Both the position numbers and the translations under genes were made by a program. A stretch of DNA of 32,977 nucleotides from a virus (lineage: Duplodnaviria; Heunggongvirae; Uroviricota; Caudoviricetes), in the IMG/VR virus record IMGVR_UViG_2713896908_000011, positions 1 through 32,977 of that record, one strand, 5' to 3'. Below, piece after piece: positions 15,594 through 24,535 of this stretch. Under the pieces are notes generated by a model. That model saw nothing but the letters and a program-made list of their open reading frames with translations. It ran no database searches and had not been told where the DNA came from. The number at the start of each line of letters is the position of its first letter. Position 1 is the stretch's first letter.

Positions 15594-15790
15594 GATTGTG
15601 GTGCTTTTTGTGGTAGTTACCCACTTACGCACTTTGTATTGCTATGCCAGCAGTTAGCTTCTACTGTAAAACTATTCATGCAGCAAACCTGCACTTCACC
15701 ACAAAATGGGATTCAATACCCACAACTCTATCTGCATCTCTACTCAGGCATCAGCCTTCTTCGTTATCGTATACAGACAAGCTATGAATT

Positions 15791-16006
15791 TTAATCAGTA
15801 ATAATGACATTTGCTGCTGCAGGACCTTTAGCACCACTCTCTACAGAGAAGGTAACCTTTTGGCCTTCAAATAAGGTTCGATAATTATCATTCTGAATTG
15901 CAGAAAAATGCACAAACACATCTTTACTACCATCAACAGGAGAAATAAAGCCAAAACCTTTATCAGCGTTAAACCATTTTACTAAACCAGTCATTTTATT
16001 TGACAT
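15791..16006 (-). CDS. cspB: cold-shock protein, CspA family (CspB-like)
   Basis: [53 protein letters not shown]... carries the RNP1 (KGFGFI) and RNP2 (VFVHF) motifs and matches E. coli CspB (a Qin prophage gene) as I recall it. AAGGAA Shine-Dalgarno is present. Confidence 0.9.
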
Positions 16007-16170
16007 TCTACATTCCTTAACTTGAGCCTTTCGGCATAAATGATTTGTATAACAGAAACGACTTCGTACTTAATTGGAGAGACTCAAAGAAGGAATAAGT
16101 GAATAACACCTGAAATGAGAACTGCTTTAGTAAACTACTTCGTATATCGTCTGTTCTTCAAACCGACGCT
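16007..16170 (-). promoter_or_regulatory. long 5' leader of the csp gene with cold-box-like element
   Basis: CspA-family mRNAs have ~160-nt structured leaders. The minus-strand sequence here contains GAAGAACAGACGAUAUACGAAG, reminiscent of the cspA cold box (UGACGUACAGA). Boundaries are approximate. Confidence 0.4.
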
Positions 16171-21865: not shown

Positions 21866-22470
21866 GCGTTAGTTTCTCCACAGTCACGACACGCCACGGC
21901 GCCCGGAGCTGCACACTCGCGGGCGTCATTACTTTCTGAAATGCAAAAAATTTTGTAGACCAGTGCAGCATGCTCCTGCAGCTTCGAAATTGAGAGATAC
22001 AGCTCGTCGTTGATTGCTGTCTTCTCATGCGGTTCCACCACACCGTCTTCGATTGCCGAACGAATCTGTTTGGAATAACTGCCAATCTGTTCAATGACTT
22101 CCAGCAGGCGCTGGTTAATATCGGCGTTGTCCACATCCTCGACGTCAGGAAGAGACACAAAGACGCCATTTGCCGACTGCGCCACAGCGTCAGCAATGAA
22201 GTGAGTTCCACCAGCACGTTGCAAAATCATTGCCCATCCCAGCGGGAAAATCTGATCGCCATCGGCACGAAGGCGGTTAAATAATGCGCTCTCTGTTACA
22301 TCCAGCCAGTCAGCTGCTTCAGCGTAACCACCCGGCAACTTTGCGATAGTTTTTCTGACAGCTTTCACGTACCACTCAGGCTGTTTTTCTACTTTCCAGT
22401 GATGCTTACCCACGGTTAGCCTCATCGTTCTGTGGTTTCTGTTAATCGATTTATCCATTAGATTTTTCAT
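21862..22470 (-). CDS. CII-like/YdaT-like early regulatory protein
   Basis: First gene after cro in the rightward operon. Start is uncertain (candidate ATGs at 22470 or 22458; the track start at 22527 is a GTG overlapping cro). Family placement (Phage_CP76-type CII versus YdaT-like) is not resolved. Confidence 0.45.
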
Positions 22471-22651
22471 AAAGCTCAGGTTTAAATGGCAACCGTCCGC
22501 AAGTTCTATATGCAGCTTCTGCTGCACGTCCTTTTGGAATTAACTGGCCCGGACGGTTTCGCCACTGATAAACGGCTTCAGTTGTTATGCCGAAAAAAGC
22601 AGCAACTTTCTCAATACTGCCGAAGTAGCTTTCGATATCGTCAGTTGTCAT
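22451..22651 (-). CDS. cro: Cro-like/YdaS-like HTH repressor
   Basis: 66 aa, divergent from the cI-like gene across a 97-bp intergenic region; ...EKVAAFFGITTEAVYQWRNRPGQLIP... fits the Cro/YdaS-type HTH. Confidence 0.7.
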   Translation of the reverse strand: MTTDDIESYFGSIEKVAAFFGITTEAVYQWRNRPGQLIPKGRAAEAAYRTCGRLPFKPELYEKSNG

Positions 22652-22748
22652 ACGCCCTCCAAACTAAGTTTTATTAGATGCTAATTACAAATCTATCTTT
22701 GGTCAATAAAAACTAAGATTACTTAGCAATTCAAGAAATGGTGCTCCT
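22652..22748. promoter_or_regulatory. divergent promoter/operator region (OR-like) between cro and cI
   Basis: Contains palindrome ATTAG-atg-CTAAT (22673..22685) and inverted repeat CTAAG-atta-CTTAG (22713..22726), plus a further CTAAG at 22664. Confidence 0.55.
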
Positions 22749-23375
22749 ATGGAAACGGTTGGTCAGCGTATAAAAGCTCTGAGAAGAGTTACCAGAACGT
22801 CCCAGAAAGAATTGGGTAAATTTTGTGGAGTAAGCGACGTTGCTGTGGGGTACTGGGAGAAAGACATCAATACCCCTGGTGGGGAGGCACTTTCGAAATT
22901 AGCGAAGTTCTTCAATACGTCAATAGATTACATTCTTTATGGTGCTGAGTTTGAAGGCAAACTCGTCACAAACATGCGCAGAGTTCCTGTAATATCGTGG
23001 GTTCAGGCTGGGCAGTTTACTGAGTGCAGGGCAGCAGAAGTGTTTAGTGAAGTGGACAAGTGGGTAGATACATCATTAAAGATTGGTGATAACTCATTTG
23101 CATTAGAGGTTAAAGGTGACTCCATGACTAACCCTAATGGCCTCCCAACAATACCAGAAGGCGCAACAGTGATTGTAGATCCAGATGCAGAACCTCGTCA
23201 TGGAAAAATAGTCATCGCTCGACTTGATGGAACAAACGAAGCTACAGTAAAAAAATTAGTCATCGATGGCCCTCAAAAGTTTTTAGTGCCATTAAATCCT
23301 CGGTATCCCAACATCCCTATCAATGGTAATTGCCTTATCATTGGTGTAGTCAAAGGAGTTCAATACGAACTCTAA
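22749..23375 (+). CDS. cI: CI-like repressor (N-terminal XRE HTH, C-terminal S24 LexA-like peptidase)
   Basis: N-terminal HTH (QRIKALRRVTRTSQKELGKFCGVSDVAVGYWEKD), candidate Ala-Gly cleavage site (VQAGQF), catalytic Ser in GDSM and Lys in ATVKKL. Confidence 0.9.
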   Translation: METVGQRIKALRRVTRTSQKELGKFCGVSDVAVGYWEKDINTPGGEALSKLAKFFNTSIDYILYGAEFEGKLVTNMRRVPVISWVQAGQFTECRAAEVFSEVDKWVDTSLKIGDNSFALEVKGDSMTNPNGLPTIPEGATVIVDPDAEPRHGKIVIARLDGTNEATVKKLVIDGPQKFLVPLNPRYPNIPINGNCLIIGVVKGVQYEL

Positions 23376-23540
23376 GACCTCTCTTCTCTAACTAAGGCAC
23401 CAAGCTAAGAAAAGTTTGGTGTTTTCTCTTGCCATAACAACTAAGTTAAGTTAGATTTTATATCAAAGATAACAAACAGGCAGGACGCCCACGAAGTAGC
23501 CGCCAGGGGCATATGAAGTCCTGGATGATTCGTTAGTAAC

Positions 23541-23564
23541 AAAAAAAGCGTCGTACAGGACGCT
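23541..23564. terminator. candidate bidirectional terminator between cI and the convergent moron gene
   Basis: Hairpin AGCGTC-GTACAG-GACGCT preceded by A7 on the plus strand (U7 after the hairpin on the minus transcript) and followed by a weaker T-rich tract on the plus strand. Confidence 0.5.
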
Positions 23565-23588
23565 TCGCTCTTTAACAATCTGGATGAC

Positions 23589-24104
23589 TTATCGGTCAGA
23601 TTTAAACTGGGGTTCTGGCAAAACTGGTGGTGTTGAATCTTCAAATCGTAACCAGTGTTCCCAAATATCATGTGTTCGTAATTTCTGTAGACTAATTTGA
23701 CGCGATGCAATTGCGGAATTAGTGGTTACTCCACCAGAAGCATCGCCCTCTACTGACGTTGAGGCTTTTTCTACTAATTCTGACCAAGCTTCACTTTCTG
23801 CGTCAAAAGCTTCTGTTAAGTCCCGCAGACGCTGTGGCTCATTTTTATGGTCTTCCTTCAAACGATTCAAAGCGGCAGTTGAATACTTATTCCTGACCCA
23901 TTCGATCTGAGTTAGCTGAATCCGCAGACAATTATCTATATCAATGGTTGTGTTCTGAGGCATGTCAGAACAAGAAATATAAAAGGTCACAACTCCACCG
24001 TTCAAACTACTGCCCGGTTCGATTAAAACATTAGAGGAATTTGACGTAGTCGGCAATATTAATGCTAACGACAAAACCACATGTTTAACAGAAATCGCAC
24101 CCAT
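23589..24104 (-). CDS. hypothetical exported or membrane-anchored protein (moron between cI and the early-left operon)
   Basis: 171 aa with AGAGGG Shine-Dalgarno. N-terminus MGAISVKHVVLSLALILPTTS resembles a signal peptide or signal anchor. Convergent with cI and followed by a terminator; this is the slot that rexAB/sieB-type exclusion genes occupy in lambdoid phages. Confidence 0.6.
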   Translation of the reverse strand: MGAISVKHVVLSLALILPTTSNSSNVLIEPGSSLNGGVVTFYISCSDMPQNTTIDIDNCLRIQLTQIEWVRNKYSTAALNRLKEDHKNEPQRLRDLTEAFDAESEAWSELVEKASTSVEGDASGGVTTNSAIASRQISLQKLRTHDIWEHWLRFEDSTPPVLPEPQFKSDR

Positions 24105-24430
24105 TTAAATTGCCCTCTAAAGAACAAGGTCATCCAGATTAACCGAAACCTGGTTATTGGGGAATAACCAAATCCACCTCGCCTGATGTGGCTAAAAGCA
24201 GGCACATAACAGCTAAGTATTTTCAACCAGAGAGAATCCTTAGCGTTGTGGTGAATGCGCAGGCTGATGCGCGAAAGACATTGCAGCTATTGCGGAAAAG
24301 AGCTGTTCGGCGGGGCAATTAAATGCCTGTGAGAGTCTGAAATAACCGCAAGCCGGAGATCAGCACCGGTCACCACAACAGCCACTGCTTTGGCGGTACC
24401 AGTTTGTACACTTACTTCCGGCTGGTACCG

Positions 24431-24535
24431 CTCTTTTTACAAAACAGAGAAGAGCATCACCGGACGACGGGCTCATAACCCAATCCATCCGGGCGGCTGC
24501 CACCGCAGGTGTTCTTCTCTGTTTTGTGGAGAAAC
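24431..24535 (+). ncRNA. candidate structured RNA element in the early-left leader (long inverted repeat)
   Basis: Perfect 15-bp inverted repeat ACAAAACAGAGAAGA (24439..24453) / TCTTCTCTGTTTTGT (24513..24527), extendable with G-U pairs, enclosing a GC-rich 59-nt segment; located ~40 nt upstream of the first early-left gene. Confidence 0.35.

What the first reader, a model, noticed from the sequence alone, without database searches (positions are those of the whole stretch)
23589..24104. Convergent exported-protein moron between the repressor gene and the early-left operon
A 171-aa protein with a signal-peptide-like N-terminus, its own Shine-Dalgarno and a strong downstream terminator is encoded opposite to cI. 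Genes in this slot of lambdoid prophages (rexAB, sieB and the like) are typically lysogen-expressed superinfection-exclusion or host-fitness factors. No family was confidently recognised; a distant resemblance to DUF1311/LprI-like lysozyme-inhibitor proteins (two Cys and a Q..W..R segment) is speculative.
Basis: partly seen in the sequence, partly recalled or inferred. Interest (0 to 1): 0.6.

Follow-up and report, generated by a model that had tools for sequence, protein, structure and literature searches.

The report
Prophage gene for exported LprI-like protein
A lambdoid prophage of Escherichia albertii carries, as a swappable single-gene insert next to its repressor gene, a real gene for a secreted protein that is a divergent relative of the LprI/DUF1311 family, whose characterised members neutralise cell-wall-cutting enzymes; its own target and role are untested.

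Summary
There is a 171-aa ORF at 23589-24104 (-), convergent with the cI-type repressor gene. It has a Shine-Dalgarno sequence, a Sec-type signal peptide without a lipobox, and a strong terminator.

It is a divergent subclade. It scores just below Pfam's cut-off, has lost the second of two conserved Cys pairs, and has an extra N-terminal β-hairpin.

The gene is exchangeable cargo. Across 66 related prophage contigs, at least six unrelated single-gene cargos occupy the same junctions. The terminator, a consensus boxA and an 80-nt upstream element belong to the phage backbone. No σ70 promoter was recognisable, so lysogen expression is unproven.

The most likely function is a periplasmic inhibitor or immunity protein against an incoming peptidoglycan hydrolase, either a T6SS effector or a phage lysozyme. 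This is inferred from family precedent, and no cognate effector is nearby.

Verdict: a new member of a known kind, of moderate interest.

The parts
23589..24104 (-). CDS for a 171-aa exported LprI/DUF1311-like protein, the cargo of the cassette
24036..24104 (-). Codons 1-23: predicted Sec signal peptide with a signal peptidase I site (SNS|SN here, SNA|SD in homologues); no lipobox
   Evidence: Heuristic analysis. The feature is conserved across the family. This segment has low confidence in the AF2 model.
24113..24118 (-). Shine-Dalgarno sequence AGAGGG, 8 nt upstream of the ATG
   Evidence: Read directly from the sequence. Conserved as AGAGGG/GAGGGG in the E. coli alleles.
23535..23566 (-). 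Intrinsic terminator for - strand transcripts (GAAGCGTCCTGTACGACGCTTT plus a T-run). It belongs to the phage backbone and is shared by phages with other cargo.
   Evidence: Scan. Lies in the 98.8%-identical backbone shared with vB_EcoM-689R6.
23577..23588 (.). Left arm of the 12-nt perfect inverted repeat AATCTGGATGAC at the cassette junction; the 7-nt core AATCTGG is backbone
   Evidence: Repeat I15. Homology with the other-cargo phage ends at 23583. Junction sequences.
24129..24140 (.). Right arm of the inverted repeat, GTCATCCAGATT, at the other cassette junction
   Evidence: Backbone homology resumes at 24134.
23566..23578 (+). Perfect consensus boxA (CGCTCTTTAACAA) on the + strand, directly abutting the cassette. 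It implies that a + strand (pL-type) transcript reads into the cassette antisense.
   Evidence: The only perfect match in the window. The core GCTCTTTAACAA forms part of the downstream junction that was searched for, allowing up to 3 mismatches over 17 nt, to define the 66 surveyed loci. The boxA consensus itself is from prior knowledge of λ/P22 nut sites and rrn leaders.
23429..23457 (+). Candidate early-left promoter (TTGCCA-17-TAGATT) overlapping an operator-like palindrome CTAAGTTAAGTTAG at 23441-23454, which resembles the two sites in the cI/cro intergenic region
   Evidence: Promoter scan, 9 of 12 matches. Operator pattern CTAAG-N4-CTTAG with at most 1 mismatch occurs only at 22664, 22713 and 23441. 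The functional assignment is inferred.
24134..24215 (.). Backbone element of about 80 nt immediately upstream of the cargo (TGTGCCTGCTTTTAGCCACATCAGGCGAGGTGG...GGTTAATCTGG), function unknown. It is conserved in E. coli, Klebsiella and Erwiniaceae loci whatever the cargo.
   Evidence: Alignments. At least 120 IMG/VR contigs carry its core. No Rfam match. Little covariation on either strand.
22749..23375 (+). cI-type repressor gene (HTH_3 + Peptidase_S24), convergent neighbour
   Evidence: Annotated as a LexA family protein or repressor cI in related records.

Best explanation
The ORF is a genuine, conserved gene. Its product is exported by the Sec pathway and cleaved by signal peptidase I. It folds in the periplasm into a three-helix bundle of the LprI/DUF1311 family, with one disulfide (C45-C59), an added N-terminal β-hairpin and a conserved proline-rich tail DSTPPVLPEP.

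The gene is one of at least six interchangeable single-gene cargos. Each plugs into a fixed slot of lambdoid prophages directly downstream of cI, between a boxA and a conserved 80-nt element, and each reads towards a backbone terminator, antisense to the probable early-left transcript.

Most likely mechanism (inferred, not shown): in the lysogen the protein binds and blocks a peptidoglycan-cleaving enzyme that enters the periplasm from outside. That enzyme would be a muramidase-type T6SS effector (making this an orphan immunity protein) or the cell-wall hydrolase of a superinfecting phage (a Spackle-like exclusion). Either way the prophage's host is protected.

Shown here: gene reality, export signals, family and fold, cassette nature, slot anatomy.
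Inferred: periplasmic location, the disulfide, expression in lysogens, the target enzyme, the protective role.
For: Family and fold:
- Pfam LprI hit over nearly the whole profile.
- phmmer E 1e-7 to 5e-4 to six PF07007 proteins in a 5.8e9-sequence database, sharing the motif LRTHxIWxxWLxxxDSTPPVLPEP.
- The family profile finds 218 representative clusters. Intermediates P0130-P0132 pass Pfam's gathering score.
- The profile matches 3GI7 at E 0.007.

Export: signal peptide conserved across the family.

Cassette nature.

Functional precedent for LprI-domain periplasmic proteins:
- Etsi4 rescues the periplasmic toxicity of the T6SS effector Etse4 (PMC12981562).
- Predicted immunity genes lie next to lysozyme-like or LysM effectors in Pantoea, Salmonella Dublin and WHIX effector loci (PMC9796082, PMC8867033, PMC12135965).
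- The phage precedent for the mechanism is T4 Spackle, a periplasmic inhibitor of the gp5 lysozyme that causes superinfection exclusion (PMC7677548).
Against: - No effector gene lies beside it in the window, in 27 prophage loci, or in chromosomal relatives.
- Its relationship to the one tested immunity protein, Etsi4, is remote: hhalign probability 14%.
- The LprI domain alone gave no lysozyme resistance in Salmonella ScwA. Mtb LprI has an extra MliC domain that may account for its activity (PMC7933661).
- PADLOC has no match.
- No σ70-like promoter is recognisable within 600 nt upstream, so expression in lysogens is unproven.
- The second conserved disulfide of the family is missing.
Confidence: 0.45

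Rival explanations
1. The protein is a ScwA-like modulator of the host's own cell wall. It binds or stabilises endogenous lytic transglycosylases or other autolysins, changing envelope homeostasis or virulence of the lysogen. It does not block foreign enzymes.
For: ScwA is a horizontally acquired, low-GC periplasmic protein with an LprI domain. It controls MltD, Slt and AmiC levels and plays no part in lysozyme resistance (PMC7933661). The window gene is likewise low in GC, at 0.40-0.43, and is an orphan with no effector partner.
Against: ScwA is 275 aa, carries its LprI domain at the C-terminus and has two disulfides. The window protein has a different architecture and one Cys pair. No specific similarity to ScwA was tested or found. 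A housekeeping-type role fits poorly with a slot whose cargos are swapped freely.
Confidence: 0.15
2. The protein inhibits animal c-type lysozyme. It would then be a host-colonisation or virulence factor for enteric E. albertii and E. coli lysogens, as the family name 'lysozyme inhibitor LprI' suggests.
For: Mtb LprI inhibits lysozyme (Sethi et al. 2016, as cited). NCBI names the 163-aa chromosomal relatives 'lysozyme inhibitor LprI family protein'. The E. coli allele occurs mainly in host-associated isolates such as CFT073, APEC and human strains.
Against: Mtb LprI carries an additional MliC domain that is absent here. ScwA, which has the LprI domain without MliC, gave no lysozyme resistance. 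E. coli already encodes Ivy and MliC. There are no hits to the MliC, PliC or Ivy families.
Confidence: 0.1
3. The LprI-like bundle is only a scaffold. The protein does something unrelated to peptidoglycan hydrolases, for example masking or binding a periplasmic or outer-membrane phage receptor component, or binding another ligand through its conserved DSTPPVLPEP tail.
For: Most members of the family, including the closest marine relatives, are stand-alone chromosomal genes with uninformative neighbours. The best-conserved parts are the C-terminal tail and the THxIW motif, which lie largely outside the Pfam LprI model. All the other cargos of the slot are of unknown function.
Against: Every experimentally or contextually characterised LprI-domain protein is connected to cell-wall hydrolases.
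Confidence: 0.25
4. The ORF is a decaying or silent remnant: not expressed and of no current function.
For: No promoter is recognisable. Some copies are damaged: L038 is frameshifted at the C-terminus, L008 is interrupted, and there are truncated clusters P0012 and P0013.
Against: dN/dS is 0.1-0.2 at dS of 0.9 or more between alleles. Full-length conservation spans four genera. The signal peptide, Cys pair and motifs are conserved. The Shine-Dalgarno sequence and terminator are intact.
Confidence: 0.05

Closest known systems
LprI/DUF1311 family (Pfam PF07007; structure 3GI7 of Pseudomonas putida PP0307; COG 'YecT')
   Different: Scores 17.1 bits, below Pfam's 22-bit gathering score. Lacks Cys3 and Cys4, which about 130 of 140 relatives have. 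Has a 16-residue N-terminal β-hairpin and an 8-residue insertion between helices 1 and 2. Carried by a prophage.
[not shown]
   Same: A small periplasmic LprI-type protein with a signal peptide. Etsi4 itself also scores below Pfam's threshold, at 18.7 bits. Orphan copies of such immunity genes are known in Pantoea.
   Different: No adjacent effector and no T6SS context. Only remote similarity to Etsi4, hhalign probability 14%. Sits in a prophage immunity region.
Bacteriophage T4 Spackle (gp61.3)
   Same: A phage-encoded, signal-peptide-bearing small periplasmic protein (PMC7677548, abstract shown). The proposed logic is the same: inhibit an incoming lysozyme.
Vibrio cholerae TsiV3 (PDB 4NSR/4NOO), immunity protein of the peptidoglycan hydrolase VgrG3
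Lambdoid morons in the immunity region (λ rexAB, λ/P22 sieB)
   Same: An accessory gene next to the repressor gene, present in some phages and replaced in others.
   Different: Opposite orientation to cI. Exported rather than cytoplasmic or membrane-bound. Terminator supplied by the backbone. No recognisable promoter of its own.

Membership tests
LprI/DUF1311 (PF07007) | Scores at or above Pfam's gathering threshold (22 bits) | tested here: not met
   17.1 bits, E 0.0075, though the match covers profile positions 1-104 of 106. Orthologues score 19-21 bits. Intermediates P0130, P0131 and P0132 score 33.6, 24.3 and 23.6 bits and pass.
LprI/DUF1311 (PF07007) | Statistically significant sequence homology to accepted members | tested here: met
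   phmmer E 1.1e-7 to 5.3e-4 to six PF07007 proteins in a 5.8e9-sequence database. The profile of the phage family alone finds 218 clusters at E <= 1e-3. The profile matches the 3GI7 sequence at E 0.0067.
LprI/DUF1311 (PF07007) | Three-helix bundle fold as in 3GI7 | tested here: met
   [not shown]
LprI/DUF1311 (PF07007) | Four conserved cysteines (two disulfides; shown for ScwA) | tested here: not met
   Only C45 and C59 are present. The Cys3 and Cys4 columns hold S115 and R135, whereas 130 and 129 of 140 relatives have Cys there. The two are lost together in the whole phage clade.
LprI/DUF1311 (PF07007) | Secreted or periplasmic (N-terminal signal peptide) | tested here: met
   n-, h- and c-regions, an AXA-type cleavage site, no lipobox, conserved in all full-length relatives. 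Heuristic only; SignalP was not available.
LprI/DUF1311 (PF07007) | Binds or inhibits lysozyme or another peptidoglycan hydrolase | not testable with these tools
   Needs biochemistry. The precedent in the literature is mixed.
T6SS effector-immunity pair (LprI-type immunity) | Encoded next to a cognate effector, or in a T6SS or orphan-immunity island | tested here: not met
   The neighbours are cI and yfdP/Q/R in all prophage loci. Chromosomal relatives sit in small islets with tyrosine recombinases or IS remnants and have no T6SS genes nearby.
T6SS effector-immunity pair (LprI-type immunity) | Specific homology to an experimentally validated immunity protein (Etsi4) | tested here: inconclusive
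   hhalign of A3 against Etsi4: probability 14%, E 0.0019, 109 aligned columns.
Moron (Hendrix-type accessory transcription unit in a lambdoid phage) | Present in some and absent or replaced in otherwise closely related phages, with sharp junctions | tested here: met
   The flanks are 98.8% and 90.7% identical to vB_EcoM-689R6, which holds a different cargo. The junctions are at 23583/23584 and 24133/24134. 66 loci show at least six cargo families at the same junctions.
Moron (Hendrix-type accessory transcription unit in a lambdoid phage) | Own promoter and own terminator | tested here: inconclusive
   A terminator is present but lies in the shared backbone. No σ70-like site with 9 or more of 12 matches lies within 600 nt upstream on the sense strand.
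T4 Spackle-type superinfection exclusion protein | Sequence or fold relationship to Spackle | tested here: not met
   [not shown]
MliC/PliC/Ivy lysozyme inhibitors | Match to the family profiles | tested here: not met
   No such Pfam or NCBIfam match at E <= 10.

The most novel reading that the evidence does not exclude
The gene may be one cargo of a previously undescribed plug-in expression slot in lambdoid prophages. Single genes are inserted at a fixed point between the boxA of the early-left leader and a conserved 80-nt element, always antisense to pL and facing a backbone terminator. Under this reading they would be made in lysogens and silenced by convergent pL transcription after induction. 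The LprI-like cargo would then be a prophage-borne orphan immunity or exclusion factor that neutralises peptidoglycan hydrolases delivered by rival bacteria (T6SS) or by superinfecting phages. The five other unknown cargo families would be further lysogen-protection genes.
Probability: 0.2. Interest if true: 0.65.

Novelty: new member of a known kind. Interest (0 to 1): 0.38.

Why it matters
If the protein neutralises incoming cell-wall hydrolases, a common prophage would give its host immunity to contact-dependent killing by rival bacteria or to superinfection by other phages. The E. coli allele is in 144 of 5,426 complete E. coli genomes, including CFT073 and ExPEC/APEC strains. That would extend the LprI-type immunity idea from T6SS islands to temperate phages.

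It would also assign a function to phrog_7681. It flags a hotspot with five other unknown cargo families that could be screened for lysogen-protective functions.

If the protein does none of this, the finding is an ordinary accessory gene of unknown role that now has a correct family assignment.

Tried and rejected
**Searches that found nothing or nothing usable**
- NCBIfam and PADLOC scans of the protein gave no hits.
- A single-sequence search of PDB sequences gave only noise.
- tblastn against 50,697 isolated phage genomes found no match, so the gene is known only from prophages.
- An empty slot, meaning boxA-IR-IR with 30 nt or less between the arms, does not occur in IMG/VR.

**Context as a route to function**
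- The marine four-Cys relatives are stand-alone chromosomal genes with uninformative neighbours.
- The 163-aa enterobacterial two-Cys relatives are orphan islets without T6SS or lysozyme genes.
- The direct link to the tested immunity protein Etsi4 is only remote.
- The other cargos of the slot have no Pfam domain hit at E <= 0.01 beyond one sub-threshold coiled-coil match, only one marginal PADLOC '2TM effector' hit (E 0.0097), and belong to PHROGs of unknown function, so location gives no functional clue.

**Upstream region**
- The conserved 80-nt upstream element has no Rfam match.
- RNAalifold on either strand gives weak structures with one compensatory pair each, so a structured RNA is not established.
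- Promoter searches with relaxed criteria found nothing convincing on the sense strand.

**Readings rejected**
- Lipoprotein: there is no lipobox.
- Positive selection: dN/dS is 0.1-0.2. The contrast between 65% identity in the gene and about 99% in its flanks fits allele replacement by recombination.
- A link to EAEC VgrG (6SJL): the match of the DSTPPVLPEP tail to 'DSTPPVLPAP' has E 1.1 and is treated as chance.

Full report
**1. Observation**

The window holds a 171-codon ORF at 23589..24104 on the - strand. It converges on the repressor gene at 22749..23375 (+), which has HTH_3 and Peptidase_S24 domains. The repressor gene is divergent from a P22-Cro-like gene at 22451..22651 (-).

An AGAGGG Shine-Dalgarno sequence lies 8 nt before the ATG. 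An 8-bp G+C-rich hairpin at 23566-23545, followed by TTTTTTTGTT, lies 22 nt after the stop codon on the same strand.

The N-terminus has a basic n-region, a ten-residue hydrophobic core (VVLSLALILP) and a small-residue c-region. The likely cleavage site is SNS|SN at residue 23, which reads SNA|SD in most homologues. There is no lipobox and no second hydrophobic segment. This export evidence is heuristic, because no dedicated predictor was available.

The ORF is a real gene:
- It matches phrog_7681 from end to end at E 2e-78.
- Full-length orthologues at 49-65% identity occur in E. coli, Klebsiella and Raoultella.
- Pairwise dN/dS is 0.1-0.2 at dS of 0.9 or more.

A 99%-identical protein is annotated 'hypothetical protein [Escherichia albertii]', which suggests the window's origin.

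**2. What the protein is**

Six lines of evidence support it:
- Pfam's LprI model aligns to residues 45-145 over profile positions 1-104 of 106. The score is 17.1 bits against a gathering score of 22.
- A single-sequence phmmer search of 5.8 billion proteins finds Vibrio, Agarivorans and related PF07007 proteins at E 1e-7 to 5e-4. The alignment shares two Cys, W107 and a striking C-terminal block L(R/Q)THxIWxxWLxxxDSTPPVLPEP.
- A profile built only from the prophage family finds 218 representative clusters at E <= 1e-3 in 1.84 billion representative proteins.
- The nearest of those, P0130, P0131 and P0132, share the prophage clade's peculiarities and pass Pfam's threshold at 33.6, 24.3 and 23.6 bits.
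- A family profile matches the sequence of 3GI7, the 'secreted protein of unknown function DUF1311', at E 0.007.

**3. How it differs from canonical members**

About 130 of 140 representative relatives have four Cys. The prophage clade keeps Cys1 and Cys2 (C45, C59) but has Ser and Arg at the Cys3 and Cys4 columns. The joint loss suggests pairing of C1 with C2 and C3 with C4, so one disulfide would remain. This pairing is an inference.

The clade also has a roughly 16-residue insertion after the signal peptide, modelled as the β-hairpin, and an 8-residue insertion between helices 1 and 2. The proline-rich tail DSTPPxLPEP lies outside the Pfam model. It is the most conserved feature of this subfamily.

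**4. Genomic anatomy**

The prophage is a lambdoid siphovirus. It encodes a tape-measure protein, a λ-type portal, a gpA terminase, a Q antiterminator, a GH24 endolysin, Rz, a CII-like protein and an Ea22-like protein. It belongs to the CPS-53/yfdPQR group also seen in E. coli CFT073.

Comparison with phage vB_EcoM-689R6 fixes the cassette boundaries. The two share 98.8% identity up to 23583 and 90.7% identity from 24134 onwards, with unrelated cargo in between. The insert is therefore about 23584-24133. Its ends coincide with a 12-nt perfect inverted repeat, AATCTGGATGAC at 23577-23588 and GTCATCCAGATT at 24129-24140. The 7-nt core of this repeat is backbone.

In 27 IMG/VR loci that carry the LprI-like gene, most retain recognisable flanks. 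In those, the gene sits between yfdP (divergent) and the repressor gene (convergent). The repressors belong to at least five immunity types, with 32-99% identity to the window's cI.

I used the conserved upstream element as a probe. At least 120 viral contigs carry it, and 66 of them have both junctions. In those 66, the slot holds at least six unrelated single-gene cargos. All are on the same strand, and most start about 30 nt after the junction, while the membrane-protein cargos start about 120-130 nt in. PHROG assignments were run on one representative per group, and the locus counts below extrapolate from those representatives:

| Cargo family | Loci |
|---|---|
| phrog_5286 | 33 |
| phrog_1244 | 18 |
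| phrog_6315, a predicted membrane protein | 7 |
| LprI-like phrog_7681 | 6 |
| phrog_3983 | 1 |
| 98-aa orphan | 1 |

None of the other cargos has an informative Pfam domain. One has a single marginal PADLOC '2TM effector' hit at E 0.0097. All are of unknown function.

**5. Backbone signals around the slot**

The terminator lies in the shared backbone, not in the insert.

Three operator-like palindromes of the form CTAAG-N4-CTTAG, with at most one mismatch, are the only such sites in the window. Two lie between cI and cro. The third is at 23441-23454, just after cI, and overlaps a + strand promoter-like site TTGCCA-17-TAGATT at 23429-23457.

A perfect consensus boxA, CGCTCTTTAACAA, lies on the + strand at 23566-23578, directly abutting the cassette. 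By my own estimate, about 0.001 perfect matches would be expected by chance in a window of this size.

Together these suggest that the early-left promoter is immediately downstream of cI, as pL is downstream of rexB in λ. Its transcript would then cross the cassette in antisense. This is an inference.

No σ70-like promoter for the cargo strand was found within 600 nt upstream. The roughly 80 nt next to the cassette (24134-24215) are conserved across E. coli, Klebsiella and an Erwiniaceae remnant, whatever the cargo. They match no Rfam family and show little covariation on either strand. What drives the gene, and whether it is expressed in lysogens, therefore remains open.

**6. Distribution**

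- The E. coli allele (75% nucleotide and 65% amino-acid identity) is present in 144 of 5,426 complete E. coli genomes. It is always chromosomal and always annotated as hypothetical.
- No isolated phage genome among 50,697 encodes a relative.
- The flanking genes are about 99% identical between the window and CFT073, while the cargo is 65% identical. dN/dS stays low, which indicates allele replacement rather than rapid positive selection.
- Chromosomal relatives of 163 aa in the same two-Cys clade occur in Pantoea, Erwinia, Sodalis, Kosakonia, Rahnella and Tatumella. NCBI names them 'lysozyme inhibitor LprI family protein'.
- These relatives are orphan islets, often next to a 200-aa tyrosine recombinase or an IS remnant, with no T6SS genes nearby.
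- The more distant marine four-Cys relatives are ordinary stand-alone chromosomal genes.

**7. Likely function**

What is known about periplasmic LprI-domain proteins points to cell-wall hydrolases:
- LprI-domain genes with signal peptides follow lysozyme-like or LysM effectors in Pantoea, where orphan copies are also described, in Salmonella Dublin, and next to WHIX effectors (PMC9796082, PMC8867033, PMC12135965).
- Mtb LprI inhibits lysozyme but also has an MliC domain.
- Salmonella ScwA is periplasmic, stabilised by two disulfides and a DsbA substrate. It affects MltD levels and gives no lysozyme resistance (PMC7933661).
- Phage T4 Spackle shows that a phage can use a small periplasmic protein to block an incoming lysozyme and exclude superinfection (PMC7677548).

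I therefore favour a periplasmic binder and inhibitor of an incoming peptidoglycan hydrolase that protects the lysogen. My confidence in that function is about 0.45. My confidence in the family and fold assignment and in the cassette nature is about 0.9.

Points against the favoured function:
- There is no neighbouring effector.
- The similarity to Etsi4 is only remote.
- The second disulfide is missing.
- No promoter is recognisable.
- PADLOC has no match.

**8. Verdict**

The gene is a new, divergent member of a known family, sitting in a known type of accessory position. Its biochemical target and its expression are untested. Interest is moderate. The slot architecture, with interchangeable cargos inserted next to boxA and antisense to the probable pL transcript, is the more unusual by-product of this analysis and deserves its own follow-up.

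Noticed in passing
window 23584-24133 and flanks; loci L041-L160: The position is a cargo hotspot. Among 66 IMG/VR contigs with identical junctions, at least six unrelated single-gene cargos occupy it: phrog_5286, phrog_1244, phrog_6315 (a predicted membrane protein), phrog_3983, a 98-aa orphan, and the LprI-like phrog_7681. All are on the same strand, and all have unknown function.
   Followed up: partly
window 23566-23578 (+): A perfect consensus boxA, CGCTCTTTAACAA, directly abuts the cassette and immediately follows the terminator stem. No second copy lies downstream of cro. This suggests a Nus-factor site in the early-left leader, with cargo inserted right after it.
   Followed up: partly
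window 23405-23457 (+): An operator-like palindrome, CTAAGTTAAGTTAG, lies at 23441-23454. A weaker one lies at 23405-23418. They resemble the two sites between cI and cro at 22664-22677 and 22713-22726. The stronger one overlaps a promoter-like TTGCCA-17-TAGATT, making this a candidate OL/pL immediately after cI.
   Followed up: partly
window 24134-24215: A backbone element of about 80 nt is conserved across E. coli, Klebsiella and Erwiniaceae loci whatever the cargo. It contains two hairpins (GGTTATT-CCCC-AATAACC and CCAC-N10-GTGG). It has no Rfam match and shows little covariation. Its function is unknown; a promoter or leader, a nut- or put-like site, or a recombination boundary are all possible.
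   Followed up: partly
window 15775-16167 (-): A strong Rfam match to the cspA thermoregulator (RF01766, 155.9 bits, full length). The prophage therefore carries a cold-shock-protein-type gene with its 5' UTR thermosensor, near the Q antiterminator and lysis region.
   Followed up: no
L163 5477-7492; L165/L166 6164-7492; L161 6325-7492: Chromosomal 163-aa relatives of the gene in Kosakonia, Sodalis and Pantoea lie about 230-900 nt from a divergent 200-aa tyrosine recombinase (FimB/E-sized) or an IS110 remnant. They are bracketed by short inverted repeats (AGCGGAAGTT / AACTTCCGCT). This suggests another kind of mobile or invertible single-gene cassette.
   Followed up: no
L008 5001-5504; L009/L010 5001-5516: Copies outside intact prophages. 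One in an Erwiniaceae chromosome is wedged between sapC-like and sapB-like genes, retains the 80-nt element and has an interrupted ORF. Copies in Raoultella and Klebsiella lie upstream of umuDC.
   Followed up: partly
window 24439-24463 / 24503-24527: A 25-nt inverted repeat, 84% complementary with a 39-nt spacer, lies upstream of the yfdP-like coding region, in a stretch annotated as a frameshifted hypothetical gene in CFT073.
   Followed up: no
protein residues 152-165 (window 23610-23651): The subfamily-specific tail DSTPPVLPEP weakly matches 'DSTPPVLPAP' in EAEC VgrG (PDB 6SJL, E 1.1). This is probably chance, but the tail is the best-conserved and least-explained part of the protein.
   Followed up: no
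L038 5001-5506: One Klebsiella-type allele is frameshifted near codon 133, which replaces the conserved C-terminal motif. Truncated clusters (P0012, P0013) also exist, so some copies are decaying.
   Followed up: no
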